A stretch of 64,000 bases of DNA from Candidatus Omnitrophota bacterium (GTDB taxonomy: Bacteria; Omnitrophota; Gorgyraeia; Gygaellales; Profunditerraquicolaceae). The notes beneath the pieces are model-generated. The model was not told the origin of the DNA, ran no database searches, and saw only the letters and a program-made list of their open reading frames with translations. Positions 10,163-64,000 of this stretch are shown piece after piece (position 1 is the stretch's first letter; the number at the start of each line of letters is the position of its first letter). Made by a program: the position numbers and the translations under genes. Where the stretch lies: positions 12,575-76,574 of the forward strand of contig JAKPTF010000035.1 in the NCBI GenBank assembly GCA_029571225.1, in the 5' to 3' direction.

Positions 10163-10880
10163 TTAAATCTTGTTGAGCGTATCTTCGTACACGGTCTGCA
10201 TTGCTGCGACTTCGTCGCTGACAGACACCAGCGGCACATCGGCCAGCTGCGCGGCGAGCTGCGTGATGTTAAGCAGGTCTTCCGAGCTGATGAGGCCTTT
10301 GTTCATATACGCAGCGGCCATGTTCTGGAGCTGCTGTCTGACCGTATCCTCGGTATTGAAGATCATGGCGAGTGCCTTTGCCATGACAAGCGGCATCGCA
10401 TTGATGCGTTTCTGCGTGACGGCCGCGCGGGATCCGGTTACGCGCACGTTCTTCACCTTTGCCTTTTCGAAGAACAGCGACGCATCGGATACGGTAAACT
10501 CGGCTTCGATATTGTCCATATCGGCATCCGCGCTGATGAGCGCGATCCTGGCCTGCGGGATCTTTGCCGCGGTCACTGCCTCAAGTGCCGCCTTCAAACC
10601 AACATGGATCGTCGCGATCCGGCCGACCCCTAATGCCTCAAGGGTCAGCTTAGCCGCGTCGTCCTTTGCCCATACGCTGAAGTCCACAACGCCTGCCGCA
10701 TCTTTTGCTTTCTCGAGCGCCGCGATGCTGCCGGCGTTTTCCATGATGGCGTTGGCGCCGAGGATAACCGCGCCCCTGGCGTTCTGGACATCGCTGATTG
10801 ATTTGACGAGATCATCGAAGTTCAACGCGCCTGCATTGTACACGCTTGCATCGCTCTTAAGCACAGTCTCGATGAGATCG
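10163..10880 (-). other. Shared C-terminal domain, copy 3 (roughly 230 aa, ends EDTLNKI)
   Basis: GAVILGANAIMENAGSIAALEKAKDAAGVV ... LISADADMDNIEAEFTVSDASLFF ... INAMPLVMAKALAMIF ... DVPLVSVSDEVAAMQTVYEDTLNKI. Confidence 0.7.
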
Positions 10881-15313: not shown

Positions 15314-15329
15314 CGTTTCTTCTCCTTTT

Positions 15330-41000: not shown

Positions 41001-44000
41001 AGAAACCCTTGAAGCGCGGCTTTGTATCCTTGTGCAGGATGTTGTCGAGATAACCGATGAGCGTATTGATGATGACGCTGACCGGGGCGTAGTATTTGTC
41101 ATAATCAGTAGAGTGCTTTTTGCGCTGGATCTCGAATTTACGCTTGAGGTCGATCAGATCGCCCAACGACCTGCCTTTGAACTGCGCATCGCGGGCCGCT
41201 TTCTTCTGGTCAAGCCGCTTGTCGCTATCCTTATTGCTTTTCCTGTCCGTTTCGTCTTTCTTTGGTTTTTCGCCGGCTTCCTGCGCTGCCTTTGCTTCTT
41301 CTTTTTCGCGCTCTTCCTGCTCCTGGCGCAGGCTTTCCTCCGCCGCTTCGATCTCATTCTCCTTCTGGGCTTTCTCTTCCGCGTTCTTTTCTGCGTGCGT
41401 ATATACCTTTGCGCCGAATTTATCAGCCATTTCCTTCGATTTCTCATCGACGATCTGGCGCGCACGTTGCACGATCTCTTCTTCGCTTAATTCATGGTCC
41501 CAGTCCTCTTCGTCGTTCTGGTCGCTGCTTCCACCTTTCTGATCCTTATTTTGAGGTTCCTGGCCGCCCCCGCCGCCACCCTGCTGGTCTTTTTGATCCT
41601 TATTGTCCTGCTGGCCTTGCTGCCCCTGCTGGTCGCCCGACCCGCTACCGCTCCGGTTGCATTGCTTGCAGCCTTGTTGATTCCGTTTCCTGACCTGGTC
41701 CTTCACGAGATTTTCCGATTCCTGCACTAACGGCTCGTACACAGGCATGATCTTGTCGCGCAAGACACGCATCACGTTCTTGGACGCCTTGAGCTTCTCG
41801 GTCGCGGTCGGGTTGAGGTCCATAAGGACTTTTGTCTTCTCGTTGATATCCGGGGCTGATATCTTGCGTTCATGTCTGCGGTTATCTTTGATAACAAGAT
41901 CTTTTTCCCCGTCCCTGCGCACGGATAATCCCAGGTCTGGAGCATCGACTGCCTCATCGCCTTCAGGATACATGACTGTCTGGCGCCTGCCGTCCGCCGT
42001 TGTAATAGTCAACTTATCTTTGTCCGTGCGTTCAACGTCTATCGTGCCGGCAAGGGTGTTGAAGATGCCGGTATAATCCTTTCTGGTTTTCTCCAGAGCT
42101 TCCAGGACATTCTTGTTTTTGATGCGCGGATGCGGTTTGCCGTACGCCCAATCGTGTATGGCGCCAAAACCGTACTGCAGATGCGGCAGGACCTGCTGGT
42201 CATTGAATGGCTCGTTCGAGTCAGCGCCGAGCAGCTTGGGATCCTCATAAAGCGCGTCAATATACTTATCAGCTCCTTCGAATTTCTTTTTTGTCCAGTT
42301 ATTGACGCGCGGGTCTTCGAGGGCGTTCCAGACGAATTGCCTCGTCGGTTTCTGCTTGACGTACGGATCAGGGAAGGTGATGTCGCGATGGGCGCCTTCA
42401 TGAAGGCACGCGCCAAGCACGAATTCTTCCTTCTTATCAAGCAGGTCCGATTCCGGGCAGTGCATCACCGGCGGCTTGGCTTCAAGGTCAACGCCCCACA
42501 TGGGGCCCGGGCCGGGCTGGATCTTCATGTCATGGCCGAACGACCGGGCCATGGATTCGACGCGGCGCACCTTATCCTGAATCTTGCGTTCCTTTAATTT
42601 CCGGGCGAGCCAGTTCTCCTGGTCCTGCCTGGCATCGTCCGCAGCCGGCTGCTGCTCATTCTCATCCCCCCCGTCTTTCCTGCGCAAGACCGCGTCAGGA
42701 TGAACAAGCTTTGATGCAGCAATCTTCTCGGCAATGGCTTCTTTTGTTACGATGAGGGGTTTTACGACTGCGGGGCCCATTGCAAGCAGTTCTTCCCGGG
42801 TGATTTCGCGTGTCAGATTATCCAGGCTATCGAAACGTTCGATGATCGTCTTAAGCTGCGCATCGCTGATGGCGGCGACTTCTGATGCGCTTGCGATCGC
42901 GACCGGGCTGAATTCTTTCATGACACAAACCGTTTTATCCAGCGCTTTGTCAATCAGAGGCAATAACGCGCAGCACACGACCCGGTGCGCCAGCGGCAGA
43001 GGCGGGCCCGTGGTCAAGACAGGCGATGCCTTTCTCTGCGCGCGAATGATATCTTTTTCATTCGGGTTTATTCCGCTTAATGCCTCGGCAATGCAGCAGC
43101 GCGGCCACTGCGCATACAGAATATCTTCCAGCTCATCACTGAGTCTTTCCATTGCATCCAGGACAGCATCAGTACGCAGAGCCCGAGGTTCCATTGCTGC
43201 AAATTCCGCATAGTGCTGCTGCACATATGCCTCATCCAGGCTTAAGGCTTCAGCGATAAACCGTATATTCGCATCCTCTTTTTCTCCACCGTCCGCTTCC
43301 TGCTCTTTGGAGTACGCCGGGATATCTTTATTCGGGTCAAGCGCTTTGTTCAGCTTATACCATGCATGGCCGTTAAGCCGAAAATCCCTGGCCAATGCCC
43401 GCAGGAATGCATCTTGTGCGGATGGAGAACGGCCTTTCCAATCAGGCATTGCCTGTTCTGCGAACAATTTTTTTACCGCTTCTTTCAACGGTCCCTCATC
43501 TTTCTCAAGGATCGCAGCATAATAGACCTGTGTCCAGGCGCCAGCTGGGCCTCTTGATTCCAGTTCCATCTCCTTGCTCAATCGGAGAAGCTCTTGTTCC
43601 TGCAGGAAAATGTTCTCCTGGCGGTATTGCTTGGTTTTCCACTCGTTGAATTTAACGATAATACCTTTAACTATCTGCTGGCCCTCAATACCTTGTATGC
43701 TGGACCTGAATTCCTCAAGGTTTGAAACTGCGCGCGCCGCAGCGGGAACTCCCTCGGAAAGCGCCTCATTGGGATCAATATCCTTGCTGCTTAGAAACAT
43801 ATACATATCTTTGATGAAATCGAGGCTTTTACGGAAATCATGTGTCGGCAGGCGGCGGATCAGATCAAGGAAATCAGGATTCCTGCGCATTGTCCCGAAT
43901 GCCGCTTCAAAATCGACCGCCTTGCCCCAGACGTTTTCGAGCATTGCGTCTTTAAGGGCGACCAGTGCATTGACATTATCGCGCGCTTCTTCCGGCGACC

Positions 44001-47000
44001 AGGACATGATCCATACCTGGTCAAAGAAAGAAGCTTCCTCGCGGATATCCTCTTCAATCGATTTCTTCTCTTCGTCGGTCCATACGGACTCAAGCTCAAG
44101 GATCCTCTGTATCCTGTCCTCTTTTCCGTTGAGCAGCATCCGGCGGAGCACCATGGCGCGGTATTTTGCAGACATCTGTTTCAGGAATTTTCCCGCGAGT
44201 GCAATATCTTCCTGTGATATGTCTTTCACAGGCCTATCATAAACCTTTGAAAATCCGCGGAACCTCTTGTCAAAACGGACCGACCGCACGGCGAACCGCA
44301 ACGCATTAACCCCTGTGTAGAGCGCCAGCGTAAAAGCAAAAAAGATAAACAACGGCACGAAACATACGGGCTGCAGTAACAGTCCGTACCAGATCCAGTC
44401 AATGATAGTGTAAAGATATAAGTGAACACCCAGGAACACATCAAGCAGATATGCCGCGATGGCCGGCATCCACACAAAACCAGCCATCAAATAAACAAAA
44501 AGATACTTGCAAAATATGTCCTCCAGGACTGCATTCAGTTTCGCGCGCGTACCTAACCGCTCCGATTCTTTGCCCCTGATAAATTCGTGTTTCATATCAT
44601 CAACAGGGAACACAGGCGCATCGCTGCCGCCATCTTTAACCGGATTGGCGCATTCAGGCGCGCTGATACCTTTGGTCAAACAGGAATTAACGATCTGTTC
44701 CATTTCCTCCGGCCTGAACTCGCCGTCGATCCAGAATTCCTGGAACTTATTCCTCATGGCCAGCGAAAGCCGGTTGCGGCCTGCATACCTGCTCGGGTTC
44801 ATGGCGGCGAAGAGGCGGAAATCAGGATGCGGCCGCACCATTTCGCCCTCATGTTCGGTGATGACCAGGTATCCGTCGTCGTCAAGCAGGGAATTGATGC
44901 GCTCGAGTATCTGCGGTTCTGCGAGATTGATCTCATCGAGCAATATCCAGTATCCCTTTTTCATCGCCTCAACAAGCACGCCGTCGCGCCAGCCATATCT
45001 GCGCTTACCCTCTCCTTCCAGAGGCAGATATTCGCCGATAAGTTCCGACGTATCGGTCTGGCCGTCAAGCGACACGCGCACGAAATTGGCATTGGCCAGG
45101 CGCGCCATATAACGGATAAGCGACGTCTTGCTGGATGCGGTCGGCCCGACAAGAAGGACATACTCGCCCATTTTTATGGACGGCGCGATCCTCACCAGGT
45201 ACGACAGCGTTGTCTGGATGTGAACAAGCGCCGCATCAGGTCCTGGTATGTACGGCCCGCCATGCCGGAGCTTTTCAACCCTGACACCGCTGAAATCGAC
45301 CCCGTCAGGATCATCGGTAATGCCGTACGTGCGTGACGCCTGCGCGGGAACATGGCAATGCTTTGCAACAATCCGGTCGAACACCGCCTTGTCCTTTGCG
45401 GTGCGCAAACAGCTGCCGTACACCTCTTTCATCTGGCAGCACAAAAGGTCATGCAAGTCACCCTGGCCGTTGTTGAGCAGGTTTATCCTGTTCGACACGC
45501 GCAGGAGGTTGCGGAGGGTAAAATAATAGAACTCCCCCTCCTCTGAACCGAACAGTCCTTCGACGCCAGCGGTGCGGATTTCGTAGTGAAGGTCGCGGAT
45601 GATCCGGAGGCTGTTGCCGTCCACCTGCGTGAACTTGCGCTCGAGAAGGTCAAGGAGCTCCGATTCCGGCATCTCGTCGATCCATTTGACCCTGAACCGG
45701 TTCATGAAGGCAGGCGATAGCGCCTTGCGGCCCGCATATTCCACCGGGTTCATGGTCGCAAAAAGCCTGAAGTCCGGGTGGGGCACGATCTTTTCGCCTT
45801 CGTGTTCGCGCAGGATTATGTTGCGGTCGTCATCGAGCAGCGAGTTAATGCGCTCGATGATCTGCGGCTCAGCAAGGTTGATCTCATCCAGGAGCAGCCA
45901 TTGGCCTTTTTTCATCGCGTCGATAAGGATGCCGTCGACCCAGGCGAATGAACCGTTGATCTGCGGCCGCGATCCGCCGATGAACTCCAGCTTGTCGGTC
46001 TGGCCGTTCAAGTTGAACCTGCGGAAATCGTTATTTGTCATGGCAGCCAGGTAGCGGATGAGGGATGTCTTTCCGACGCCGGTCTCGCCGACGAGAAGCA
46101 CCTGCTCGTTCATGGCCACCGCATACGCAAGTGACTGGAGGTTATGCACGGTGCTGGGCGTATGGATCAGCTGCGCCGTTGCCTTATTGGGCACGTATGC
46201 CCCGGCTTTTTGGTTGACCGGAAGGACGGTCAGGCCCACGGTCACCTCGTCATCCGTAACCTTTATGGCATCCTGCGGCGTTGGAACAAATACCGCAGTA
46301 TCGGCGCCGCTCGCCGCTGCTCCGAGGTCCTGCAGAAGAACCGCAAACTGCCGCATGTCTTTCTGTGTTTCCATGCGGTCCTGATATACGTACATGGCGC
46401 CTTCCAATACCGCTTTCTCGGTCCCGATGGACTGATACATGTTCACGAAACGAGCCCACGATTTCAAGTCCCTGATGCTGAACACATACCCCTGCAGGCC
46501 GCTGCCGGAGAGCGCGCCGGTATTGACGAGCGAAAGCAGCCTCATATGCAGCCTGACCATTGCCCCGGCAATCGCGTCCTTATCCGGTACCTGCAAATAC
46601 CTGCCCACGATCGTGATCAGCTCATCCTTTTGGAAATTGCCGTCAATCCAGATCTCATGGAACTTGTTGCGCATTGCTGGCGAAAGCTTGTTCCTGCCGG
46701 AGTACCTGCTCGGGTTCATGGCGGCGAACAGCCTGAAGTTCGCATGCGGCCTGACCTGCTCCGCCTCATGCTCGGTAACGATGATTGAGCCATCGTCGTC
46801 AAGGAGCGGATTGATGCGCTCGAGGATCTGCGGCTCGGCGAGATTCACCTCGTCCAACAGCACCCAGTATCCCTTTTTCATCGCATCAATAAGGACACCG
46901 TCGCGCCATACATATTTCCTGCCAAAACCGTTGCCTTCAGGCGCGTATTCGCCGATGATCTCTGCGGTATCGGTCTGGCCGTCAAGGGACACACGGACAA

Positions 47001-50000
47001 AATTATTTCTGGTCAGATATGCCAAATACCGCACGAGGGACGTCTTGCTTGCTGCGGTCGGGCCGACAAGAAGTACGCGCTCGTTCAGCCGGATCGCCGG
47101 AATTATATGGCGAAGGTAGCGCATGGTTGTCGGGATATGCACAAGGCTTGATTCCTTTCCCGGGACATACGGGCCGTCCACGTTGTTTATCTCCGACGTA
47201 TCCAGCGCCATATTGTTCGGATCATGCGCTCCGTTGGGGCTCAGACCGCTGAACGTCGTATCAAGCAGGTCTGCGAATATCTGCTGGTCCGTCTCGGAAC
47301 GGAGTGCGCTCGCATAGACCTCCTTGGCCTCTTCGTTGAACAGCCGCTTCAGCGCGAATTCATTAACCTGTTCGCCGTCCTCCCTCATCCGCTTTTCGCG
47401 CAGTTTAACGCGCTCGCACAGGCGGATCAGGTGCCTGAGGGTAAAACAAAACGGCTCTCTTTCGTCCCTTCCGAGGATCCTTTCCTTACTGTCGCGCACG
47501 AGCGATTGATGCAACTGGTCAATGCGGCCGAGAAGCAGGGTATCGAACCCGAATTTCTCATTCAGCAGGCTGATCCGTTCGCTCGGCAGCATCTCATCGA
47601 TCCATTTGACCCTGAAGCGGTTCATAAGCGCGGGCGAAAGGACGTTCCTTCCTATATAATCGGTCGGGTTCATGGTGGCGAACAGGCGAAAATCCGGATG
47701 CGGCACGATCTTTTCGCCGTCGTGCTCCCGCAGGACGATGTTATGGTCGTCGTCCAAAAGCGAATTGATGCGCTCGATAATCTGCGGTTCTGCAAGGTTG
47801 ATCTCATCCAGAAGGAGCCACTGGCCCTTTTTCATCGCCTCGATAAGGATGCCGTCAACCCAGGCGAATTTCCCGTTTGCCTGGGGCCTGCGGCCTCCGA
47901 TGAATTCCAGCTTATCGGTCTGGCCGTTCAGATTGAACCTGCGGAAATCATTGTTGGTCATGTATGCGAGATAGCGCACGAGCGACGTCTTGCCCACGCC
48001 GGTTTCACCGACCAGAAGCACCGGATCGTTCAATGTCACTGCCTGCGCGACCGCTTCAAGGTTAGAGACCGTGCTTTGCGTATGGACGAGCTGCGAGGAC
48101 TCTTTCTTCGGAACGAATGCGCCTGCCTGTTTCTTCACGGGAAGGATAACCGAATCAACCCGCACCGTATTGTCTTTTATTTCGATAGTGCCTTCCTTAT
48201 ACGGCAATACGACAGGCCCCTCTTCCTCTTTCTTTTGCTGCTGGTCCGCTGCCGGTTTTTCTTTCGGGCCTTCGACGGCCTTGCGGAACCTGATGAATTT
48301 CTCCGCAACGTCTGCGGACAACGGGCCGACCGCGATATGCGCTGCGTCAACGCTGTCGGATTCGTTCTCCAGCTTCTGCAGGGCAACGGTAACAGCCGCG
48401 CTCAATGCAGGGTTCAACCCCATGAGAAGCTCATTGCGCAGCTTTTCCGAAAATGCGCGCAGGCGCAAGTCGCCGATAACCTCGATGGCCGCCTTTTTGA
48501 TCTGGGTGACCTTGCTGGCAAGCGGAACATCGAGCAGCACCGTCGCAATCTCGCGCGGAAGCAGGACGAATATCCGTATGCCTTCCGCGATCTTCGCGTC
48601 CTCGCGGCTTGCAAGCATCTGGGCGATCTGTTTGAGGTACGGCTGCAGGTCCTGCGGAAAGTTCTCCGTTGCCCTGCGGAACTGGTCCGCGAGGCTAAGC
48701 GACGTAAAATCCTCCTCCTGGACGAAGTCAGCCATGGACATGATGTCGTATGTCTCATAGGTCTGCTCTTCCCACACTACGTCGATGTCGAAATCCCTCG
48801 ACTTGCTGCCCGTTGACGCGAATTTAGATTCCTTGACGATCTCCTTGAGCTGCTCCTTATCCTGCGGGGATTCCAGGCGGTCCTTGAACACGTACATGGC
48901 GCCCTTGAGGAACGTAGTGCGCATGTCGGCGTTGAAATTCTCGTTGAACGTCTTGATGAAATACGCCCATTGTTTCACGTCGCGCAGGGAGAAACTGTAT
49001 CCGTCATTGCCCATCTTGCGCCTGCCGATCTGCCCTTCCTGGATGCGCTTCTGGACATGCTTGTAGATCTTGATCATTTCCGCAATGACGTCGTCTGCGG
49101 CAAAACTGCCGAGGTAATGACGGATGATCGAGGTCAGCTCCTCATCGGTAAACTCACCGTCCATCCATATCTCGTGAAACTTGTTGCGCAAAGCCGGGGA
49201 GATCTTGTTGCGGCCCGAATACCGGGTCGGGTTCATGGCGGCGAAGAGCCTGAAGTTCGCATGCGGCCTGACCATCTCGCCTTCATGCTCGGTGACGACG
49301 ATAAAGCCATCGTCGTCTATGAGCGAGTTGATGCGTTCGAGGATCTGCGGTTCGGCAAGGTTCATTTCGTCAAGGAGGATCCAGTAGCCTTTTTTCATCG
49401 CCTCAATAAGGACGCCGTCGCGCCACAGATAGGAACGCTCCGCCGCATTCTCACCCGGGATATATTCCCCGATCAGCTCGCAGGTATCGGTCTGGCCGTC
49501 GAGGGAGACGCGCACGAAATTGTTCCCGGTCAGATGCGCAAGGTAACGGATGACCGATGTCTTGCTCGAGGCAGTCGGCCCGACGAGCAGGATGCGCTCA
49601 TTCTGGCGGACAGCCTTGATGATCTTGCGGGCATAGCACAAGGTGGACTTGACGTGCACGAGCTTTGCTTCTTCCCCGGGCACATACGGCCCCTGCACGT
49701 GTTCGATGCCGGACGTATCCAGCTCCTCGTCGGATACCGGGCAGGAATAGCAGTCGACGCCCGGAAAGACCTGCTGCATCTGTTCTTTGAAGACCTGCTG
49801 GTCTTCTTTTGACCGCAGCATGCTGCCGTAAATATCGCATGCCTCCTGCGCGAACAGCTTCATCACCAGCGGCCCGAACTCGAAATTATTGTTCGTGCGT
49901 GCTTTGACGCGCTTGGCAATGCGCAGAAGATGCCTGACGGTGAAATAATACGGTTCCGGCTCGTTCTTGCCCAGGGTCGGAGCAATGCTGCGCAGGTTCT

Positions 50001-53000
50001 GGTGAAGCATGATAACGCGGGCGATCACGTCCTCATCGAAGCCGAATTTGCGGCGCACAAGATTCAACAACTCGCGCTCGCTCAGTTCCTCGATCCATTT
50101 CACGCGGAAACGGTTCATCAAAGCGGGAGACAAGGCCTGGCGGCCGGCATACTCAACCGGGTTCATGGTAGCGAACAGGCGGAAGTTGGGATGCGGAACG
50201 ATCTTCTCACCGTCATGCTCGCGCAGGATGATATTGCGGTCGTCGTCGAGCAGCGAGTTGATGCGCTCGATGATCTGCGGTTCTGCCAGGTTGATCTCAT
50301 CCAGGAGCAGCCAGTATCCGTTCTTCATGGATTCTATCAGTATGCCGTCAACCCATTTCAACGTGCCGTCGGCCTGCGGCCTGCGGCCGCCGATGAACTC
50401 CAGCTTATCGGTCTGGCCGTTCAAGTTGAACCTGCGGAAGTTATTATTGCTCAAATAGGCCAGATAGCGCACAAGCGACGTCTTGCCAACGCCCGTTTCG
50501 CCGATGAGCAGGATAGGATCGTTAAGCGTCACTGCCTGGCCGATCGCCTCGAGATTGCTCACGGTCGAGGCTGTATGCACGAGATGAGCGACGTCTGCGG
50601 AAGGGACATACGGCCCGCCCTGTTCATTGATCATTACCTTCGCGCAGCCGACCTGCACATAACCTTCCTTGGGCGGCAGGATGCGATTGTTCGCGTCGCG
50701 TTCGTTGAAGTGCTTGCGCGACCGCACGGACTCAAAACATTGCTTCATTTGCGGATGATATTTGGCAAAAACAGCTGCCACTTCATCTGATTTCTTCTGC
50801 AGGTCTTCCGGCAGGACCGGCGCATTGAGATCGACTTCTGCAGCCACATCTTTTAATAATCTGCCGTCCACTTTCTTATAGCCGAGCGTAATGAGCGCCC
50901 GCGCTGCCGATGCTGCCACAAACCTGTCTTTGCGGTCCAGGAGCGTCATCAAGTATGTTGCGTATTTCTTGAACCGGAATTGATTGACCAGGTCGATGAT
51001 CGCCCGTTTGATCGGCCCATCCTCATAGGTAATGGTATGGTCGATCAGCTGTTGCGCTATTTCAGGCGGCAGGCCTTTCCAGGCATAAATTGCGGCAACG
51101 GTCGTCATATCGACTTTATCGCTGAGCATTCCGGAACTTTCCCTGATCGCTCCGGCCAGATCTTCAGTTTGGCCGCGGACAAAATACCTGAACAGGACAT
51201 CCAGGTTGTTTGAGAACAAAATGTCCCGCTCGTCAAATCCTTTGAATTCCACGATCTGGTCAAACTCATCGCTTGCCGCGACATCGATAAAGCTGCCCAG
51301 ATTCAGCTCCGACATAGTTTTCATGAATTCTTTGCGGTCCTCGGGCTTTTCCATGCGGTCGCGGTATACGTACATCGCGCCCTTGACGAATGACCGGGCA
51401 AGGCCCAGTCGAGGGCTGAACTCGCGCACGTAATTCGACCACGCGCGCAGGTCTCTCAGGCTGAACTCATACGGCTCTTTGCGGCCGGCGCCGATCATGT
51501 TCTTTTTAACCTTTTCCCTCAGCTTGGAATGCAGACAGACCATCTCCTTAACCACCTCATCCTTCTGCGTGAGGTTCTCAAGGGGTTTTATCGCGTCTGC
51601 GACCAGGTCTTGTTTACCGCCGTCCTTCATCGGCGCAAGTGTCGCCTCGGTCACCGCAGGATCGAGCGCCTTGTTGAGCTGATACCATTCTTTCTGGTTT
51701 AACCCGTAGTTCGCAGCCAGGGAATGCAGGAAATCCACCTTTTGCTGCTGCGAATACGCTTGCCATTCGGGCTGGGCCTGCTTGTCATAGAGTTTAAGTG
51801 CGGCGTCATGGAAATCCGGCCGGATATCCTTGAGGATAGTCTTGAGGTAAACATGCGTCCATCCGCCCGGAGGACCGCGCGCAGCAAGCTCCATGTGCTC
51901 ATAGAGCCTGATCAACTGTTGTTCCTGTCCGATAACGTCCTTACGCCTGAATTGCCGTCCAAGCCACGATTCGTATTTGGCGACCACGCCCTGGACCAGC
52001 TGGTAACTTTCGATGCCTTTGAGATTGCTGATAAAGTCGTCTGCGCTCCTCGCTCCCCTCGCTGCTGCAGGCACGCCTTCGGAGATAGCCTCATCAGCCG
52101 CGATCTCCTTGGAACGGAGGAACTCGGCCAGCGCCTCGATACTGCGACAGCACTGCCTGAGCTGTTCCGGAGCCAGGCTAAAGACGAGTTTTTTGAAATC
52201 TTCGTGCCTGCTCATGGTCTTGAACGTTTCAAGGCTGACACCGGCCTTTTTGTCAAGCCGCACCTGTGCCGCACTAAGCACCAGTATTTTTAACCTGGCT
52301 TCTTCAAAAGACTGTGAGTGATCCGCAATCTCATCCTGAAATGCACCTTCTTCCTGCAATTCACGGAGCAAAATTTCCGTGTTGCGCTTGTCAGAGAGTG
52401 TATTAATGATCCTGCGGGCAACATCCGAGCGGGAATTAAGCAGGAATAATTTAAGCAGCCCTGCTATGTCCTTATTCGACCACTGGCCGATGATGCTGTT
52501 CATCTTTAAGATCAGCTCATCAGGGCACGGATCACAATCAGGGATCAGCATTTTTTCGATCACCGCTCTCTCTTTGTTACTTATGGAACAAGATACCCGC
52601 AACTGCCTGAATGCGAACACGGCATATATGCCAAGATGAATAAGCGACGCTACCAGCATCACAGGCACGAAAAGGCAGCAAACGCTTCCGAAGAGCCAAT
52701 AATACCAGGGGATTACAAAAGTTATGCCATAAAACCATTCTATTCCGACTAAGGCTATGGCGAATATTATTCCACCGAGGATTTCGCCGACGGGTACTAT
52801 ATGAAGCGCTATAAAGGCCCCGAGAAACTTCGAGTCCCATAAACCTTGGATCCTCTGATCACATTTGGCCGAGAGCTGTTCCAATGCAGCGTCTTTATTC
52901 GCCAGGGGCAGCGCCGCATACTCGGCAAACAGTTCCTCCTCGTCCGGATTGCCGCCGTCCATCAGCGGCGCCAGGGTCGCCTCGGTCACCGCAGGATCGA

Positions 53001-56000
53001 GCGCATAGACAAATTTCTGCTGTAGTGATAACGTCTCCCAATCAGGCCGCAAGCGCCGGTGATACAGCTGGGTAATAGCCTCTTTCAACCGGCCGGGACC
53101 GCATGCTTCCCTGGCGATAACAAGAAATTCCAGATTCTCCTGGCGGCCGCCGTCGAATGCCCCGGACATGCGATAGTGCTGATCTATTGCGGCATACTCT
53201 TCTTTTACCCTGGCCATCCATTGATCATGAGCTTCCCTGCCGTTTTGCCCGGAGAATTCCGGTATTGTTTTCTGCGCTGTCGTTGATATCAGGTCAAACA
53301 GTTCCGTGTCGGATCCGGTCCCGGTGCCGAATGTATGCTGCAGGTCGCGTATAAGACATATCCCCATGCCGATGCGCTCGAGAACCGTCTGATCGTACAG
53401 ATTCTGATATGACAGAGAAGAAATATTCCTGGCCAGATGAGCCGGCGACAGGAAAAGCCATTCTAACATAAGCGATTTGATAATGGTCGCCGGAACGGAT
53501 AATGAGATCCCACCCAGCACCAGAGACACGGCAACGGCGGAGAGCCAGGTAATAGGCGAGACGATCACCACCCATATCAGGATGTAGCCGATGTTAAGGG
53601 ATGCCTTTGCGCACCATGAAAGCACGGTATCAATGGTGTTTATCGTCTTGCGGTGCCTGCCAAGGGCGAGCGGCCATCCTGCCGCATCTTTACTGCGTGT
53701 TTTCCATCCGATCAGATGAGCTGTCATACGGCAGGAATCAGTTTCCAGGGACGGATATAAACCGTTGAACACCGCCGCTGCCAGATTGACATGCGTGAAT
53801 ATTATCAGCGCAAGCCAGGGAGACGCGATGTTCGGGATCAATACCGAAAAGGGCGCGATCCCCAGGGAATACAGGACGATAAGGCCGATCACTGCCAGGA
53901 TGAGGTTGGATAAAGGCCCTGCCGCTGCTACGTAGAAGCCGGACCGGCTGGAGCTAGTGATCGCCGTTGCGGGATCCTCCTCGACATATGATGAGACAGC
54001 GGACAGCCTGATGCGTCTTATGGGCCTCTTGAATCGGATCATGACGAGCGCATGCGCGGCCTCATGGATGGCTGATATGGAATATACTCCGAGAGTCAAG
54101 GCGCCCAGCACCGGGTTCAAGACCCACAGGACGATTATTGCAGGAACAAGAAGAACCAGATTAAAGTGCAGTTCGATCGGGATCGATGTGGGCAGGTGAT
54201 AGACGCTTGAGAACCCTCTTCCGGTCCAGCCGGATTTTCGCCGCTCCGTTTCAGATTCTCCGCCGTCGCGCAGGATGACGTGCGGCAGGGTCTGATAATC
54301 GGGCACGACGGTGCGGATGTTCACCGCGCGCTTGAGCTTCTCCCAATCGACCTTATTGAGCTGATGCTCTGCGGCGATATTCTTCAACCAACCCAGCTTC
54401 TCCTCCAAGGATAAGCCGTTCCATTCAGGCCCGCTTGTCTTCTCAAACACCTTGACCGCCGCTCTGCGCAAAGGCGCATGGGGTCCGTAGTTTTCCTGTA
54501 TCTGTGTCCTGAAATACAAATAGGTCCAATCTGCGGAATCACGAGGTATCGTCAGCCCGATTTCTGATATAAGATCCTTCAGTTTAGTCTCCTGAACGTC
54601 AAGTTCATAATTATGCCCGAGCGGACCGTTAATAAAATAACCCAATTCCCACTGTTTATATGCCCGCACCACAGCTTCTTTCAGGGCCCAGAACTTAATG
54701 GCATGCAGATTCCGAGCAATCTCCTCTTTGGTGGCGGCGCGGGTCGCCGCGGGCACAGAATCGCATAATATCCCGTCGACTGCGATCCCCCGGCTGCGAA
54801 GGCCGCTGCACATCGAGACGATCATATCAAGGCTTTGCTGAAAATCATCCTGCGCGAGATTGCGGATCATTTCCAGAAATTCAGTCTGCGTGGTAAGATG
54901 AAGAAACACCTCGTGGGCATGCCGCATACCTTCCGACCCCTCTCCCAGGTACGGCACAAGCTGACGCTCAAATCCATACAGGGCGCGCAACCTATCCCTG
55001 GCGGTTTCGGCACTATCTGCCAGGCGGAATACTTCGCTCTGGAACTTTAACTCTGCCTGTAGCGATTCCGTAAGCCTTGCTCTTCTTCTATCGTTCCAGA
55101 CAGACAACGCGCAAAACCGCACGGCCTTGTCGCCCTGCAGCCGGGAGAGCCAATCCTGGATCAGAAACGTCAAATACCTGTCCGGAAGCTGGCTGAAGGC
55201 TTTTGCCGATCTCTCCAGACTATTATCAGATACATCGGAGCTGTCAGATACTATGATCTTCTTCATCCGGGGATGATCAACGCAATGGTGCACGGCCAAC
55301 GCAATATCATACACATGACCCGTGAGGAATAAAGCGCCCATAACAGGCATGATATAAAGAATATTCAGGGAAAGCGTGAAACCCACGCCAGCAGCTATAA
55401 AGTTTAAAATTACAGTCATGAAGAAAACTATCCATCCAAGATCAGCTTCTGGTGACGTATGATATGTCCGCGCCTCCAGTGTTTTCCAGAAAGGGACCTG
55501 CGGCAGAGCCTTGCATAAGCGATTAGAGATTTCTTCATCTGCCACAAGCAGCATATTGACTACGAAGTTTAAAATAGATATCATGAATATTGTCGCGCAC
55601 AAAATGAGGCCCAGAGCGGACAACATAAAAATTCCATCGATAGTCACGGCCTGCGTATAGAACTGCCATGCCAGACCTGTATCGCCTCCTGACAACGCAG
55701 CCCAGGCCTGCGCAAAATATGAAAGAGATATCTGATCCTGGGGGGTTAAGAAACCGGCGGCGAAAACGCTGCATGCAGTCCACAGCGACCCGCCATCCGA
55801 ACGCAGGCTCGCCAGTCCGTCCTGGTCTGTTAATTTCTCCCGAATAAGACCGTTGTTGAACTGCGGGTTGACCCAGACGATCCTTCCATCAGGCGTAATG
55901 TCGCAGAGCGCGGGGCACACAATATCGATGCCGAAGGTCCTGTGCCACTCATCCTGTATATCGCGCGGCAATATCAAACGGTATATGTCGGCCACCGCAC

Positions 56001-59000
56001 GACCCTGCTCGACGTGGGTATATGCGGCCCTGTCCGGCCAATTCGCCGGGTCAAGAACCGTTTGCCAATCCGCCTCTGTAATCTCTCCCTTCTGCAGGCC
56101 CAACACCACCCTTAAACTGCTCAAGAGTTTTTGTCTTTCCTTCGAAAGGTCGCCGCCGTCATGCTCTGCCGCTAAACTAGTCTCCTTGGCACTGATTATT
56201 TCAAGCGCATCCCCGGCCATTTGAAGCGTTGCTTTCATACCCCGTATCTGCTCATCGGAAAAATCGCCGCTGGCGCGCACACTTTCAGCGATCTCATCGC
56301 GCATCTCTGCGGCGCGCGCGCGGCGGTCCGCAGGCTTTTCCTCCGCAACCAGATGGTGAATACCCTCGGCGATCATAACCAGGTTCCGGTCGTTCATGAA
56401 GTCTGCCGGGCGCAACTGGCCGGCAATATCCTTGAGCTGCTGTACCGACGTTATGGCATAATCGTGGTTAACCAGGCCAAAGGCTGAAAACATCAAAACG
56501 AATACACCTATAATTCCCAGGCTGAAGGGCACATAAAACGGAAGAATGCCGATTACGGACAATACCGCCAGGGCAATGCAACTGACCGCGACAATCCGGC
56601 TGTAGACTACGGTCACCCTGTTCGCATAAACGACATTTGTTTTCATCGCAAGCAATGACCTGATCACGCGGCCCGAATCAAGCGGGTACATCGGCATGAA
56701 AAGATTGAATATGCCCAGAATCCAATTGATCAGGCCAAGCGACACCAGCCAGGCGAGCGGGCTTGCCATATCTATGACCGGCCAGGCGAACAGGTTGAAC
56801 GAAGCACCCAGGAGCGCTGCGGGAACGAACAGCGACGCTGCTATGCCGAAACTTGCAAGGGGGCCGGCAATGGAAACCAGAAATTCCTGTTTCGGATCCC
56901 TGAACTTCATGTCCCGGATCGCCGTAGTGCCTCCCAGGATATGAAGCGTAATATGATCCGTTTCAAAGCCGTATCGCCGGGCAGCGCGGATATGCGAAAA
57001 TTCATGCGCCAGCACTGACAGAAGAACGGCAATATAGAACAACAGAAGTTCCCATCCGGTTAACGCAAACAGGGCAATCGGAATAACCAGCGTGATGTGC
57101 AGCCGCAGCGGGATCCTGGTCGGTATCTGTAACGATGGAAATATCCCGTCGCCGACCAATTCCCAGGATTTGCTCTGCGCTGCGCCGCCGTCCCGGCTCG
57201 CATCGATCCGTGTCGACGGACAAACCACCCTGGCTCTGAACCATAGAGGAACATGCCGGATCATATCCTGCCTGATCGAAACAGCTTTTATAAAGCTGTC
57301 CTGCGCCATGTCTTCAAAGCCAAGGGCAAGCGACATTGCCCCCAGGTTTACATGTGATATATGGCACGCCGGATTGAGCTCGATTGCCTTCTGCATCTCT
57401 ATAATGGCTTGCTGAAAATAACCCTGCCGGTAATAGAGTAGCATGCTGCGGTTATAGAGAACCGACGCGTAATCGGGATTCTGCTCAAGCGCCTTCCGAT
57501 ATGCCGAAAGTGCGGCGTCATAGTGGCCGAACTCCGCATATACCGCTCCCAGGTTATTATAAATACAACAGCTCACGCCCGGCTTATCCATTATCTGGAA
57601 CCCGAAGTAAAACAGATTCAATAATTCTTTCTTTGTGATGCGGTCGACATCCAGCACGCCTGCCTGATATTGCTGCTCGAGTTCGATAACACGCTCGCCG
57701 GATATTTTATAGTTTGGCTTGAGTACCCAATATACGCCTGCTTTGCGGTAATATTTCCTAACATTGACGACCCGCAACGTGTTTAATATGAAATCGATCA
57801 CCAGCAATCTTTTCTTGTCAAGCATGAGCCCGACAAAACAATGTCCGATACGGCTGCAACCCCGGACGTTGAATCCCAACATTGCCAGGATGATATACGT
57901 CAATTGCGCGGTTACAATACATCGCGCGAGGCATGCTTTCATAGCAGCGCTTTCGCTGCCGGAACGGGAATCGGCATCAATGACATCGAATATATTTTCG
58001 TGGTTCAGGCTGTTGACTAACAGCATGCTTATCTGCGGCGGATCAACCTCTTCAAAAATCCGGTTCCTGTCGAACAGGTCCCACACCACAAGCATTAATT
58101 GGCCGAGATGCTTTCTGCCTTCGGGGGCATTACGCAGGCACTGATGCCATTGCGCTGATTGTTCTGTAAGGGTTTGCCATGTATCTTCAGGAAGGACCTG
58201 TTTGATCTGAGCGTTCAACGCCGGAACGGCATTTTCAGGATACCCGATGCTCACGAGAATACCGGATAATTTTTCATCATACGCTCCGCCGTCCAGGCTG
58301 AGATACAACTCCAGAGCCTTGTTCCTGACCAGCGCAGTCATTTCCGCTTTCATATCGGCATCGTCAGGGTGCGCCATGCAGCGGCGGAAGGCGCTATCAA
58401 AAACCCGGGCCGTGAATTCAAATCCTGCGTTATAGTAAAATTTTATGTAGCCGAACATCCCTGCCGGATCGCGGTCGATCACCGGCGACGGATCATGCGC
58501 AAATCCCCTGACCGCGCCCTCATGAAGGGAATATATTGCACGGAGCCGTTCGATGAATATCTCGCGCGTCCAACCCTGATGCCGGTATTCCGGGAACAGG
58601 AAGAACCCGGTATTAAAGAACCACTTGGAATGCCAGCCAAATCCGACAATCCCATCCCTGTTGGCCAGGATCTCGAGCCTTTCATGGCGGCCGCCGATCG
58701 TGACGTTGAACCCGCGGGGTCTTTCCGAACAGGACCAGTGTATCCCGCGGCCGAGGATCGTCGTGTAGAACGGATCGTTCTCGAACATCATGATACCTTC
58801 TGTCTCAAGACAGAAATACGTCCTGCCGTAACGGGCGCTGTGCTGACTTATTTTTGCATCAAGCATTGCTACCTGGTCAGAGCTATCGGCCCAATCGGAA
58901 TCGAAAAGCTCGATCGGCTCTTTGATCCTGCTGACGATTTCTTCGCGTCCTGTCCCGCCGTCGCGCAGCGCTCTCTCGATCATCTTGATGTCGCTTGAAA

Positions 59001-62000
59001 GCCTGTCCATGGCAAAATCGGTATACCTGCAGGCGATCATGCGTTTATTGACCGGCAGTTCTCCCCGCGCCACGCGCGTCCGGATGCCCTTCATGGTAGA
59101 GGTAAACCCGCTGATGAAGCTATCCCTTGCCGCAGGCCGGATATCCCGGGCCGCGATATTCGACAGGAGGGATTGCAGCATTCCGGCCTGGGTGCTCAGA
59201 TCGTCTTTGTCCAGAGTGAACGCGCTGACAAAATCTATATTGTACATTTCAATAACCGTATCGAGGTCAAGATCAACCCGGATATTGCTCGGGTTCCTGT
59301 CACCGAGGCCGATCAAATAAGCGGCAAATGCGGTCTTGCCCAGCAAATATGCCAGTTGCGGGACAAAACGACGGTTCGCGAGCAACGCGTCATTGAAAAG
59401 GTAGATATCCTCAAGGCTCGAATTGCCCACGTTGGTATAAACATAGTAATGGCTCCGGTAATCGACGAGCATCTGCGTCGGCAGGGTAAACGCCTCCAGG
59501 ACTATCGAGGCATACGGCTCATAGCTGTACGAAAAGGCCTCTTTCAGGATGAGCGTTATATGCTTCGAACCGAACCGGACTTCCGCGCGGTACGTCCGGA
59601 GGTCATCAAACGAGGTCTGGATTACGCCTTTTATTAATTTCACGGATCCGATGCCGTCGCAGCCGAGGCGGCAGAGAAGCTGCCTGATAAACTGTTCTTC
59701 CTGGCCGCCGTCGCACGATTGTTTTGCGGAAGCCGCATCCTCTTTCCCATCGGCAGCAAGATACTTTTCTATGACGTGGCCGGGGATCAGCCTGTTCAAT
59801 CGTTTGACAGCAGATTCCTTTTCGTCAGGGCCAAGCACATTGATCACGTGCAGATTTCCCGGCGACAGGACAATCGCCTTCATGAAATTTTCCATCGCCT
59901 CCTGTTTATTTTCCGAATACAGATTAACGAGCCCTAAGCCAAGATAACTGCTGTAGTCTGCGGGATTGAGTTCCCGGGCAAAAGAAAACTCTTCCTCGGC
60001 ATTCTGGTAATCCCCTCTCTCAAGGTAATTGAATGCGGCGCCGATGTGCGCAACGACATAGTCCGGTTTAAGTTTAAGGGCCTTAAGATAATGCGCCAGC
60101 GCCGCATCCTTATCGTTCAGCCGGTCATACGTCATCGCCGCTTTCTTGTACATGACCGCCATAAGGCCTGATGCGTCGGTAATATATATATTCGAGTAAT
60201 ATAACGGGAACATCTGGGCATCTTTGAGCGTGTACGCAGGCTGATTTTTCCTGTCGGACCTTTCTTTCAGCCGGAGCAATGCCGCAGGCTCAAGCGGCCA
60301 GTTCCATGACAGATATTTTCCCTCGGCGTGGTAGGTATCCTGCAGCGGCACTGCCTTAATAATGCCGGTGAACAGGTCGACAAAAATGTGCTCGCCTGCC
60401 CAGGGGACAACCGCGAACACGGGGCCGGAGCCGACGGCAATCCTTGTCTCATAACCAAGCATCGATAACAGCAGATACATAAAAGCAGTCTTGTTGGCGC
60501 ACGTAAAAAACGAGTCATAGATCCTGTTTTTCTCTTCTTGCGCGAGGGGCGAGGCAAAAAGGGCGTCGAAAATATGCTGTATCGGCAGCGAGTGCACCAG
60601 ATATTCGTGGATTAACCAGACAGACCTGATATAAACCTTGTCATGCGCAAACCCGACTTCAGGGAGTTCGTCGTGCGTTGTTTCAAATACGATCTCTCGC
60701 GTCTTTCCGTCCCGGACGCTCTCGTCAAATATTTCCCTGAAGGTCTTTTCCATGATGAGAAGCGTGTCCCGGCTGAATTGCGCGCGGAGCTCTTCGATGA
60801 AAGCGGGCATGATCTCCTTTTCGCAGGACAACCGGCGCAGGATTTCAATCAGGTCCCCGTCATCGGCTATATGCCCGCGGTTGGGAAGCAGGAGCGCCTG
60901 CTCCGCCTTGAGCATGGCCTCTTTTTCAGCTCGCGATTTCCTTTCTATCTCAAGGTACATGGAAAGATACGGGATATCAAGGAACGTCGGGCAGACCACG
61001 ACATCGACCGCATCCGTATTTGCAAAGCCTTTCTTGAGGCCGCGGTAATAATTCATGATGCAATCGCCTTTTTCGAACATCTTCAGATTAAAGATGACGA
61101 ACGGTTTCTTGGCCTTCTTTTCCGCAAACGCCGCTGCCTGCAAGACAATACCCGCAGCGCTTTCAACCGGCATGGCGAATCGGGCGACAAATACGCCGTC
61201 GATGTCTGGTTGCCCTAAATAATCCGCGGCATTGTCCGCATTGACGTACCTGCCGTACATAAGATAGATCTTTCGCGCAATGCGCGGCCCGTACCGTTTG
61301 TTCCGGGCGAGCCACGTCCGCAGTGTCCGGCAGACCGCCTGGGCCTCGGCAGGATCTATTGCCTTCTGCTGCGACTCCTGCTGCTGCTTTACCCACAGCG
61401 GCAGATAAATGACAATGACCTTCTGGGCCTGTTTCCTGCCGATGCCCTGCAGGGCGGTGCTTAACTGGTTGATCAAAACCTCATTCGTGACCCCGCGTTT
61501 TCGTTCATCGAGCGTATCAGACACGAAAATGGCCGGTATCAGGCCGTGCGCCAGCGCAGCCTTGACCTTCTTATTGACGAGTTCATACGATTCCACGATC
61601 TCGACAACGCCGTGCGTCCGTTCCGGATGCCCGACCATGACAAAGGCGACCTGCTCGCGTAAAAGCATGGAGGGCGAAACCTCTCCCGTATACGGCCCCG
61701 CGTCCTTGTAGAACATGTTCTGGGCGCCCATGAATATACCGCCGTCGCGGTCGGTATCGGGGGCGCATTTTTCACGGTCGGACAGCTCGGTCATATACCC
61801 CTGCGCCGCCAGGAATTCGGCTTCTTCGAACCATGTCAACTTCGCATTGCGCATTTGTTCCATGACAATGCGGCGGTACAGCGATCCGGGATCGAGTACG
61901 ATGGTCACCAGATAACTCCACGGAAGCCGCTCGATGCGCGTTCCGTTCCTGATGGTCCTGCCGGAAAGCGGCACCGGCAGTTCCTTGCACATGATGCCGG

Positions 62001-63996: not shown

Positions 63997-64000
63997 AGAA

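What the first reader, a model, noticed from the sequence alone, without database searches (positions are those of the whole stretch)
61120..61745. TIM-barrel module that looks like a catalytically dead, N-terminally truncated triosephosphate isomerase
Sequence similarity to TPI is clear (GAQN ... TGEVSP ... GHPER ... LYG ... DIDGVFVA). The module begins at the GAQN strand directly after a DGG junction, so the first strand with the catalytic Lys is absent, and the YEPVWAIGTG loop reads YLPLWVKQQ (catalytic Glu replaced by Leu, lid glycines lost). This suggests a pseudoenzyme or binding module rather than an active TPI. Other enzyme-like modules in the giant protein may likewise be scaffolds, whereas the upstream-gene enzymes (PGI, PPi-PFK, PEP-utilizing) retain their motifs.
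Basis: seen in the sequence. Interest (0 to 1): 0.55.

Follow-up and report, generated by a model that had tools for sequence, protein, structure and literature searches.

The report
Circularly permuted, catalytically dead TPI barrel
A module inside a giant Omnitrophota protein is a complete triosephosphate isomerase barrel whose first two strand-helix units have moved to its end; it has lost the catalytic glutamate yet is strongly conserved, so it is a repurposed enzyme fold and not a truncated relic.

Summary
The TPI similarity is real (Pfam TIM E=5e-43). It lies on the minus strand, in an ORF of at least 15,640 aa from a Candidatus Omnitrophota bacterium.

The module is not N-terminally truncated. 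The missing beta1-alpha1-beta2-alpha2 segment, with Asn11 and Lys13 kept (FNLKMF), sits 8 residues after alpha8 (aa 963-1017, window 60946-61110), just outside the reported interval. Put back in canonical order, the module matches a TPI profile end to end (202 bits). An MSA-based AlphaFold model has eight strands (pLDDT 88, pTM 0.89).

At least eight distinct relatives share the permutation and the same changes (E165L, S96P, G210R, W12L). Every relative that carries an organism name is from Omnitrophota. Against a relative with saturated synonymous sites, pN is 0.14, so selection maintains the module.

It is therefore a conserved, circularly permuted TPI-derived pseudoenzyme, or possibly a neo-enzyme. 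It forms a cassette bounded by DGG tripeptides. DGG occurs 37 times against 4 expected and marks the borders of modules shuffled between relatives. TPI-like domains in such proteins were already reported. I found no report of the permutation, the conserved dead site or the DGG punctuation.

The parts
61738..61746 (-). DGG tripeptide (aa 751-753) that opens the cassette; the barrel begins at its last Gly
   Evidence: Coordinates. DGG occurs 37 times against 4.1 expected. Homology to relative P0122 starts exactly here.
61135..61740 (-). TPI units beta3-alpha3 through beta8-alpha8 (aa 753-954). Includes GAQN, loop 3 TGEVSP, GHPER (His790 = His95, Pro791 = S96P, Glu792 = Glu97), YLPLWV (Leu865 in place of Glu165), YGRY (Arg916 in place of Gly210) and DIDGVFVARFA (Gly232/233 lost).
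   Evidence: Matches TPI profile positions 58-250 at 165.6 bits; Pfam TIM; PDB alignments; Foldseek top 50 hits are all TPIs, rmsd about 2 A.
61402..61404 (-). Codon of Leu865, at the position of the catalytic base Glu165
   Evidence: Leu in all 7 aligned permuted relatives and in L003.
61111..61134 (-). 8-residue linker AAFAEKKA (aa 955-962) joining the old C-terminus (alpha8) to the old N-terminus (beta1)
60946..61110 (-). Relocated TPI units beta1-alpha1-beta2-alpha2 (aa 963-1017): KKPFVIFNLKMF (Asn970 = Asn11, Lys972 = Lys13) ... VDVVVCPTFLDIPYLSMYL
   Evidence: Matches TPI profile positions 2-56. The N-part profile scores 20.5 bits against a maximum of 1.2 in shuffles. 82% identical to P0122. 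Strands E222-228 and E254-258 in the model.
59704..60945 (-). Rest of the DGG-bounded cassette (aa 1018-1431): a helical region with no Pfam match, then TPR repeats, ending in SCDGG
   Evidence: Only TPR families are found. Homology to P0122 ends exactly at SCDGG.
17080..63999 (-). Giant ORF of at least 15,640 aa that carries the module. Contains DUF1152, the TPI-like barrel, TPR, peptidase M50, a midasin-like run of AAA_5 domains, CoaE, ROK, cation-efflux, HAD and GNAT modules, plus many hydrophobic segments from aa ~2300 on.
   Evidence: No stop codon before the window end.

Best explanation
The module (aa 753-1017) is a complete (beta-alpha)8 barrel of the triosephosphate isomerase family that has been circularly permuted. 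The order is beta3..alpha8, an 8-residue linker, then beta1-alpha1-beta2-alpha2, so the new termini lie between alpha2 and beta3. SHOWN: it belongs to a family that, wherever a source organism is named, is from Omnitrophota. Every member has the same permutation and the same remodelled pocket. Asn11, Lys13 and His95 are kept. The general base Glu165 is always Leu, Ser96 is always Pro, Gly210 is always Arg, Trp12 is always Leu, and the loop 6 and loop 8 glycines that grip the substrate phosphate are gone. The module evolves under strong purifying selection and is the best conserved part of its cassette. INFERRED: it cannot catalyse the DHAP/GAP isomerisation, because it has no proton-abstracting base and no phosphate gripper. 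It survives as a TPI-derived pseudoenzyme whose conserved pocket most likely binds a small anionic ligand or a partner segment. The pocket is formed by Lys972, His790, Asn970 and the new Arg916. Alternatively or additionally, the barrel serves as a rigid assembly unit. It is built as a self-contained cassette bounded by DGG tripeptides inside a giant, multi-pass membrane, Archaeovorin-like protein. The same cassette appears next to different neighbours in relatives. The most likely origin is tandem duplication of a TPI gene followed by loss of the outer parts.
For: Permutation: two exactly complementary hits to a profile of 120 ordinary TPIs, positions 58-250 then 2-56. The relocated piece scores 20.5 bits against at most 1.2 in 200 shuffled giants. 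The in-silico re-permuted sequence gives one hit of 202.5 bits over profile positions 3-248 of 253. The AlphaFold2 model built with an MSA has pLDDT 88.2, pTM 0.89 and eight strands. The top 50 Foldseek PDB hits are all TPIs. Dead site. Conservation: pN 0.137 against pS 0.70 (saturated), and 77% identity (82% for the relocated piece) against 56-60% for the rest of the cassette, all versus L001. There are 55 invariant columns among 7 members, including N970, K972, H790, P791, L865 and R916. Family and taxonomy. These are independent assemblies from NCBI, JGI and ENA, so this is not an assembly artefact. Cassette borders at DGG. Possible tandem-TPI precursor state in an Omnitrophota genome.
Against: No biochemical data exist. 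The retention of Asn11, Lys13, His95 and Glu97/Asp together with a new invariant Arg fits a new catalytic activity as well as it fits mere binding. I could not compute a non-sequential superposition, so barrel closure by the relocated piece rests on the confidence and strand assignment of the AlphaFold model. That region had only 2 informative MSA rows (pLDDT 75-89). Which side of the membrane the module faces is unknown, and so is whether DGG sites are cleaved.
Confidence: 0.72

Rival explanations
1. Neo-functionalised enzyme. The permuted barrel is catalytically active on another substrate or reaction, using the retained Lys972, His790 and Asn970 plus the new Arg916, with no need for Glu165.
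For: The pocket residues and the substitutions E165L, S96P, G210R and W12L are invariant across members only 39-56% identical, including a subfamily with a shortened loop 3. Such precise conservation of a remodelled pocket is typical of a functional site. The neighbouring genes encode glycolysis-type enzymes with intact motifs.
Against: No new invariant acidic or nucleophilic residue appears at the pocket. The only new invariants are Pro, Leu, Val, Arg, Ala, Cys979 (in alpha1) and Tyr983. Loop 6, the catalytic lid, is replaced by a longer polar segment modelled as a helix. Apart from TPI itself, the only activity named among the PF00121-type hits retrieved here is an L-erythrulose-1-phosphate isomerase (11ef_A).
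Confidence: 0.2
2. One reading: an N-terminally truncated TPI fragment that lacks beta1 and the catalytic Lys, so an incomplete barrel that needs a strand supplied in trans.
For: Within the interval 61120-61745 alone, the match begins at TPI profile position 54-58.
Against: The missing 55 residues follow in cis 8 residues after alpha8, with the N-x-K motif intact. They are conserved at 82% in a relative, and the model closes into eight strands.
Confidence: 0.02
3. Still an active triosephosphate isomerase that uses another residue as base, as NCBI's automatic name 'triose-phosphate isomerase, partial' for relatives implies.
For: Strong family similarity. Lys13, His95 and Asn11 are kept.
Against: Glu165 is Leu in every member, and the phosphate-binding Gly171, Ser211 and Gly232/233 are all replaced. 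From established enzymology (my own knowledge, not tested here), even E165D costs about 1000-fold in kcat. Ordinary TPIs exist in Omnitrophota (P0015 and P0060), so the pathway does not depend on this module.
Confidence: 0.03
4. Functionless relic or assembly chimera: a decaying TPI fragment inside a mis-assembled or non-coding giant ORF.
For: Neither the exact downstream 553-aa protein nor a full-length copy of the giant protein is in the protein collections.
Against: A 99% identical fragment exists in an independent NCBI MAG (P0121). Relatives occur in JGI, ENA and NCBI assemblies. pN is far below pS. The 46.9-kb frame is open throughout.
Confidence: 0.02

Closest known systems
Canonical bacterial triosephosphate isomerase (TpiA, Pfam PF00121; e.g. 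Geobacillus stearothermophilus 1BTM/2BTM)
   Same: About 40% identity over beta3-alpha8 and the same fold (Foldseek rmsd about 2 A). Asn11, Lys13, His95, Glu97, loop 3 Thr75/Gly76, Tyr164, Pro166 and Trp168 are all conserved.
   Different: The order of units is rotated by two beta-alpha units. Glu165 is Leu, Ser96 is Pro, Gly210 is Arg, and Gly232/233 are lost. Loop 6 is 4 residues longer and has no glycines. The module is embedded in a protein of more than 15,000 aa and is not a free protein of about 250 aa.
TPI-homologous domains reported in Omnitrophota 'Archaeovorin' giant proteins (West-Roberts et al. 2023, bioRxiv 10.1101/2023.11.21.568195)
   Same: Same phylum and the same kind of host protein: giant, many transmembrane segments, with TPR, HEAT, AAA_5, HAD_2 and PPDK_N domains plus glycolysis-type domains.
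   Different: That paper lists the domain as homologous to TPI and discusses sugar processing. It does not mention permutation, loss of catalytic residues or a DGG motif, and it states that cleavage points are unknown.
Natural circular permutations of TIM barrels in other families (transaldolase versus class I aldolases; GH70 glucansucrases versus GH13) - from my own knowledge
   Same: Same kind of event: a whole number of beta-alpha units moved from one end of the barrel to the other, usually explained by duplication and truncation.
   Different: Those families remain active enzymes. I found no report of a permuted member of the TPI family itself in the held literature.
TPI fusions and tandem TPIs (PGK-TPI fusion type, P0164 and P0210; tandem TPI-TPI, P0134; Omnitrophota P0159)
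   Same: They show that TPI barrels are fused and duplicated in nature. A tandem repeat is the expected intermediate of a permutation.
   Different: These keep the canonical order in each copy and keep Glu165 with the YGGS/GG loops. P0134 and P0159 contain no DGG tripeptide.

Membership tests
Triosephosphate isomerase family (Pfam PF00121) | Significant sequence match to the family profile | tested here: met
   147.8 bits against a gathering cut-off of 20.1, E=5.1e-43. 202.5 bits over profile positions 3-248 of 253 after re-permutation.
Triosephosphate isomerase family (Pfam PF00121) | All eight beta-alpha units present | tested here: met
   Complementary hits to profile positions 58-250 and 2-56. 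Eight strands in the AlphaFold model, pTM 0.89.
Triosephosphate isomerase family (Pfam PF00121) | Canonical N-to-C order beta1..alpha8 | tested here: not met
   The order is beta3..alpha8 then beta1..alpha2.
Active triosephosphate isomerase (EC 5.3.1.1) | Electrophilic and orienting residues Asn11, Lys13 and His95 | tested here: met
   N970, K972 and H790 are invariant in the family.
Active triosephosphate isomerase (EC 5.3.1.1) | General base Glu165 in the YEPxWAIGTG loop | tested here: not met
   Leu865 in the window and Leu in all relatives.
Active triosephosphate isomerase (EC 5.3.1.1) | Phosphate gripper: Gly171 (loop 6), Ser211 (loop 7), Gly232-Gly233 (loop 8) | tested here: not met
   KQQQESQQ replaces IGTG, YGRY replaces YGGS, and ARFA replaces GGAS.
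Active triosephosphate isomerase (EC 5.3.1.1) | Measured interconversion of DHAP and GAP | not testable with these tools
   Needs an enzyme assay or a tpiA complementation test.
Archaeovorin-type giant proteins of Omnitrophota (West-Roberts 2023) | Encoded in an Omnitrophota genome | tested here: met
   P0121 is 99% identical and named Candidatus Omnitrophota bacterium. All four family-specific GTDB loci are Omnitrophota.
Archaeovorin-type giant proteins of Omnitrophota (West-Roberts 2023) | Giant ORF with many transmembrane segments and the typical domain repertoire (HEAT/TPR, AAA_5, HAD_2, PPDK_N, glycolysis-type domains) | tested here: met
   An ORF of at least 15,640 aa. TPR, HEAT_2, AAA_5 and HAD_2 found. 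Hydrophobic segments. PPDK_N is in the downstream gene, not the giant ORF.
Archaeovorin-type giant proteins of Omnitrophota (West-Roberts 2023) | C39 or S8 peptidase-like domain, and GT5/GT1 glycosyltransferase domains | tested here: inconclusive
   None among the Pfam hits listed for the part inside the window (only the best 25 of 27 and of 34 families were shown for the first two chunks). The N-terminus lies outside the window.
Double-glycine (C39-type) processing sites | Cleavage after a Gly-Gly by a C39 peptidase | not testable with these tools
   Only the enrichment and border position of DGG are shown. The link to C39 peptidases is my own recollection and is a lead, not a test.

The most novel reading that the evidence does not exclude
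The giant Omnitrophota ORFs are polyproteins punctuated by [K/R/A]-D-G-G processing sites, 37 of them in this ORF. Cleavage releases some 38 separate products. One of them is a free protein that contains a circularly permuted TPI barrel with a re-engineered pocket (Lys/His/Asn plus a new Arg, no Glu). This protein has a new ligand-binding or catalytic function in an exported or membrane-bound glycolysis-like machine. It would be the first natural circular permutant and the first conserved pseudo- or neo-enzyme of the TPI family, and DGG would supply the missing cleavage map for these proteins.
Probability: 0.3. Interest if true: 0.8.

Novelty: new variant of a known kind. Interest (0 to 1): 0.6.

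Why it matters
TPI is the textbook 'perfect enzyme' and gives its name to the TIM barrel, yet I found no report in the held literature of a natural circular permutant or a conserved catalytically dead lineage of this family. This family offers a natural experiment on how a barrel tolerates re-threading and what a TPI pocket can be turned into.

There is also a practical consequence. NCBI's pipeline names several of these fragments 'triose-phosphate isomerase', so metabolic reconstructions of Omnitrophota could wrongly credit them with TPI activity.

Finally, the DGG tripeptides that bound the cassette give a concrete, testable candidate for the module borders or cleavage points of Omnitrophota giant proteins. 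The main paper on these proteins says that such information is lacking.

Tried and rejected
1. A single-sequence AlphaFold run gave a poor model (pLDDT 50.5) and was not used.
3. Supplying each TPI as two fragments led MAFFT to scatter the N-terminal fragments across the alignment, so that alignment was discarded. The final model used whole TPIs plus the one relative, which leaves the relocated piece with a shallow MSA.
5. The first GTDB scan, with exact 8-mers from the region after the module, found nothing.
6. An exact look-up of the downstream 553-aa protein found nothing.
7. A word-based homologue search with the module returned only ordinary TPIs.
8. I considered that conservation of Asn11, Lys13 and Glu97 merely reflects the TPI dimer interface. 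This is weakened because a subfamily with a shortened loop 3 keeps the same pocket residues.
9. I considered that DGG might be a DNA-level recombination signal. The 37 sites use 13 different codon triplets, so the motif is conserved at protein level.
10. I suspected a transglutaminase-like Cys/His/Asp domain in aa 1018-1270. Pfam and PDB sequence searches found only TPR there, so I make no claim.
11. Omnitrophota P0159, with tandem TPI units, could be the duplication intermediate, but its N-terminus is lost in a 100-N scaffold gap.
Full report
**1. What is at the coordinates**

The interval 61120-61745 is coding on the minus strand. It lies inside one open frame that runs from 63999 down to the stop at 17077-17079. 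That is 15,639 residues inside the window, and there is no stop codon before the window end, so the true N-terminus probably lies outside.

The similarity to triosephosphate isomerase is not a chance resemblance:
- Pfam TIM scores 147.8 bits (E=5.1e-43) for aa 753-951 against profile positions 54-242 of 245.
- The best solved structure by sequence is Geobacillus stearothermophilus TPI (2btm_A, E=1.1e-34, about 40% identity).

The HMMER alignments fix the register of the catalytic loop through Tyr164, Pro166 and Trp168. At the position of Glu165 the window has Leu865. Loop 6 reads WVKQQQESQQKA, with four extra residues and no glycine. YGGS is YGRY, and VGGAS is VARFA.

**2. The module is permuted, not truncated**

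The residues that follow alpha8 read KKPFVIFNLKMFEKGDCIMNYYRGLKKGFANTDAVDVVVCPTFLDIPYLSMYL. This is the TPI N-terminus: beta1 with the N-x-K motif, alpha1, beta2 (VVVCP) and alpha2. The evidence:
- A profile built from the 120 nearest ordinary TPIs finds exactly two hits in the 15,639-aa protein. Positions 58-250 match aa 753-954 (165.6 bits) and positions 2-56 match aa 963-1017. The two hits are complementary and only 8 residues apart.
- A profile of the N-terminal 57 positions alone scores 20.5 bits there and nowhere else. The best score in 200 block-shuffled copies of the giant protein is 1.2 bits.
- Cutting the module and rejoining it in canonical order gives a single 202.5-bit match over profile positions 3-248 of 253.
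- An AlphaFold2 model made with 117 aligned sequences has mean pLDDT 88.2 and pTM 0.89. It has eight strands in the order beta3, 4, 5, 6, 7, 8, 1, 2. The relocated piece has pLDDT 75-89, although only one other row of the alignment covers it.
- The top 50 Foldseek hits in the PDB are all TPIs, aligned over 183-211 columns at about 2 A. A sequential aligner is expected to give exactly this on a permuted barrel.

Lys and His are present, with the Lys on the relocated strand. Glu is not.

**3. Where it comes from, and whether it is a one-off**

A 903-aa NCBI fragment is 99% identical (HOU36575.1, 'MAG TPA: triose-phosphate isomerase, partial [Candidatus Omnitrophota bacterium]'). This identifies the source phylum.

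A search with the module itself returned only ordinary 250-aa TPIs at 36-42% identity. Relatives appeared in three other searches:
- a search with the TPI core cut out of the query;
- a full HMMER scan of 1.84 billion cluster representatives;
- a scan of GTDB genomes with the family-specific pattern [IVF][IV][VI]YLP[LM]WV.

Together these give at least eight distinct permuted modules: the window/P0121, P0122 (JGI), L003, P0126 (ENA, 3238 aa), P0127, P0129, P0130 (5225 aa) and P0125/P0274/L006. Every one that carries an organism name is from an Omnitrophota MAG. Each matches a permuted-order profile as one full-length hit.

In all of them:
- Asn11, Lys13 and His95 are kept.
- Position 165 is Leu, 96 is Pro, 210 is Arg and 12 is Leu.
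- Gly232/233 are replaced.

Three members form a subfamily with a shortened loop 3 and still keep this pocket.

**4. Selection**

The comparison is against the JGI relative (L001). In the module, synonymous sites are saturated (pS 0.70) while pN is 0.137. Identity is 77% over the module and 82% over the relocated piece. The helical and TPR parts of the same cassette are 56-60% identical, and there is no detectable similarity upstream. The 'dead' barrel is thus the most constrained part of its neighbourhood.

**5. Surroundings**

The giant protein carries these modules:

| Module | Position (aa) |
|---|---|
| DUF1152 | 361-561 |
| TPI-like barrel | 753-1017 |
| TPR | ~1280-1430 and ~2145 |
| Peptidase M50 with HEFSH | ~2320-2476 |
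| Midasin-like run of AAA_5 domains | ~4100-6200 |
| CoaE-like | - |
| ROK-like | - |
| Cation-efflux domain | - |
| HAD | - |
| GNAT | - |

There are dozens of hydrophobic segments from aa ~2300 on.

Downstream on the same strand are four genes:
- a 553-aa protein with no Pfam match;
- a 1726-aa protein with class II aldolase-like, PPi-PFK (GGDD, PKTMDND) and GAPDH (SCTSN) parts;
- a 951-aa protein with a weak PGI match;
- a protein of at least 2398 aa with pyruvate phosphate dikinase domains.

This is the repertoire described for the 'Archaeovorin' giant proteins of Omnitrophota. For those proteins, domains homologous to TPI, PGI, FBPase, PGM and aldolase were listed without further analysis (West-Roberts et al. 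2023).

**6. The DGG punctuation**

What I found about this tripeptide:
- DGG occurs 37 times in the giant ORF against 4.1 expected, with a maximum of 10 in 300 shuffles. It is the most over-represented tripeptide in the protein.
- It is 8-15 times enriched in most of the relatives examined.
- The preceding residue is mostly K, A or R.
- It is encoded by 13 different codon triplets, so it is a protein-level motif.
- Homology between the window and P0122 begins exactly at RDGG (aa 751) and ends exactly at SCDGG (aa 1429). The neighbours on both sides differ.
- In P0126, P0127, P0129 and P0130 the permuted barrel alone fills one DGG-to-DGG unit of about 285-300 aa. In P0125/P0274 the helical-TPR unit precedes the barrel, with a DGG between them.

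DGG therefore marks the borders of cassettes that are shuffled between relatives. Whether it is also a cleavage site is not shown. Neither Omnitrophota paper mentions it, and the 2023 paper states that cleavage points are unknown.

**7. How it most likely works**

Shown: the fold is a complete, permuted TPI barrel, and a specific remodelled pocket is conserved under purifying selection.

From established TPI enzymology (my own knowledge, not tested here):
- Glu165 is the base that abstracts the substrate proton.
- The backbone amides of Gly171, Ser211 and Gly232/233 hold the phosphate.
- Even E165D costs about three orders of magnitude in kcat.

Inference: the module is not a triosephosphate isomerase. 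Lys972, His790, Asn970 and a new invariant Arg916 line the former active site. No new invariant acidic or nucleophilic residue appears. So I favour a non-catalytic role, either binding a small anionic ligand or partner, or acting as a rigid assembly unit of the cassette. A new catalytic activity is the main rival (about 0.2).

The permutation puts both termini at the alpha2/beta3 boundary, and alpha2 continues into a long helix. Why that was selected is unknown.

The likely origin is tandem duplication followed by truncation. Tandem TPIs exist (P0134). An Omnitrophota genome also encodes tandem TPI units with intact Glu165 fused to a phosphoglucomutase (P0159), although its N-terminus is lost in a scaffold gap.

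**8. Novelty and verdict**

The presence of TPI-like domains in these giant proteins is already published. In 7.7 million PMC papers plus bioRxiv I found no report of the permutation, the family-wide loss of the catalytic base with retention of Lys/His/Asn, the purifying selection, or the DGG-bounded cassette structure.

I rate it a new variant of a known kind, with interest 0.6. It is also a practical warning, because NCBI names several of these fragments 'triose-phosphate isomerase'.

Noticed in passing
window 17080-63999 (-), 37 sites, e.g. 61738-61746 and 59704-59712; also P0126, P0127, P0130, L003: The tripeptide DGG is about 9 times over-represented (37 against 4.1 expected) and usually follows K, R or A. 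It sits at module borders and is enriched 8-15 times in most relatives examined. Homology blocks between relatives start and end exactly at DGG. It is a candidate module junction or processing site and is not mentioned in the Omnitrophota giant-gene papers.
   Followed up: partly
window 10163-15343 (-), protein aa ~131-189 and ~472-525: The class II fructose-bisphosphate aldolase-like module of the 1726-aa protein also appears rearranged. The part matching aldolase residues ~195-252 comes about 340 residues BEFORE the part matching residues ~103-157. The D(G/A)SH motif of the matched aldolases reads DASF here. The E-values are weak (about 1e-3).
   Followed up: partly
window 15343, 10073 and 7194 downwards (- strand N-termini of the 1726-aa, 951-aa and >=2398-aa proteins): All three glycolysis-type multi-domain proteins begin with a hydrophobic, signal-peptide-like segment followed 50-80 residues in by a DGG (aa 70; 68; 51 and 79). 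This hints that they are exported or anchored and share the same junction motif as the giant protein.
   Followed up: no
L002 8001-11571 (CP070837.1, Candidatus Omnitrophota; protein P0159 = UCB57229.1): This protein has tandem TPI units that keep Glu165, YGGS and the GG loop, followed by phosphoglucomutase domains. It has no DGG. It is a possible duplication intermediate on the way to the permuted family, but its start is lost in a 100-N scaffold gap.
   Followed up: partly
P0121, P0125, P0129, P0159, P0274 (NCBI records HOU36575.1, MFA5100603.1, MFA6385041.1, UCB57229.1, MDD4941540.1): NCBI's annotation names these giant-protein fragments 'triose-phosphate isomerase, partial'. Four of the five carry the Glu165-to-Leu permuted module. 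This could inflate TPI calls in metabolic reconstructions.
   Followed up: yes
window ~44500-51700 (-), giant protein aa ~4100-6500: A midasin/dynein-like run of AAA_5 domains with AAA-lid domains. Three of the Walker A loops are identical (GETGVGKT at aa 4499, 5330 and 5970). This is unusual for a bacterial protein.
   Followed up: no
window ~32200-32800 and ~24700-25500 (-), giant protein aa ~10405-10587 and ~12822-13096: The CoaE-like module has GSAKT where the usual P-loop has GSGK[ST], as does the relative P0122. The ROK-like module keeps the NDxN Asp but reads SVGGS where ROK kinases have DxGGT. Other modules may therefore be modified too. The HAD module (DLDNT) and M50 (HEFSH, LDSGR) keep their motifs.
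   Followed up: partly
window 60200-60945 (-), giant protein aa ~1018-1270: The conserved region between the barrel and the TPR repeats has no Pfam or PDB sequence match. It contains a conserved FFTCAN...GEHIFVDLFTG pattern (Cys...His...Asp), also present in P0122 and P0125. This is reminiscent of transglutaminase-like cysteine-protease folds, but the resemblance is untested.
   Followed up: partly
L001 3906-7753 compared with P0277 and P0282: In contig Ga0192804_1000584 the relative's long frame is broken into overlapping ORFs. Two other JGI assemblies give the same sequence as one continuous 1230-aa product. The breaks in L001 therefore look like frameshift errors or strain variants, not real gene borders.
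   Followed up: partly
P0134 (640 aa, source unknown): A natural tandem TPI-TPI protein with an EF-hand-like N-terminus. Both copies keep the catalytic Glu.
   Followed up: no
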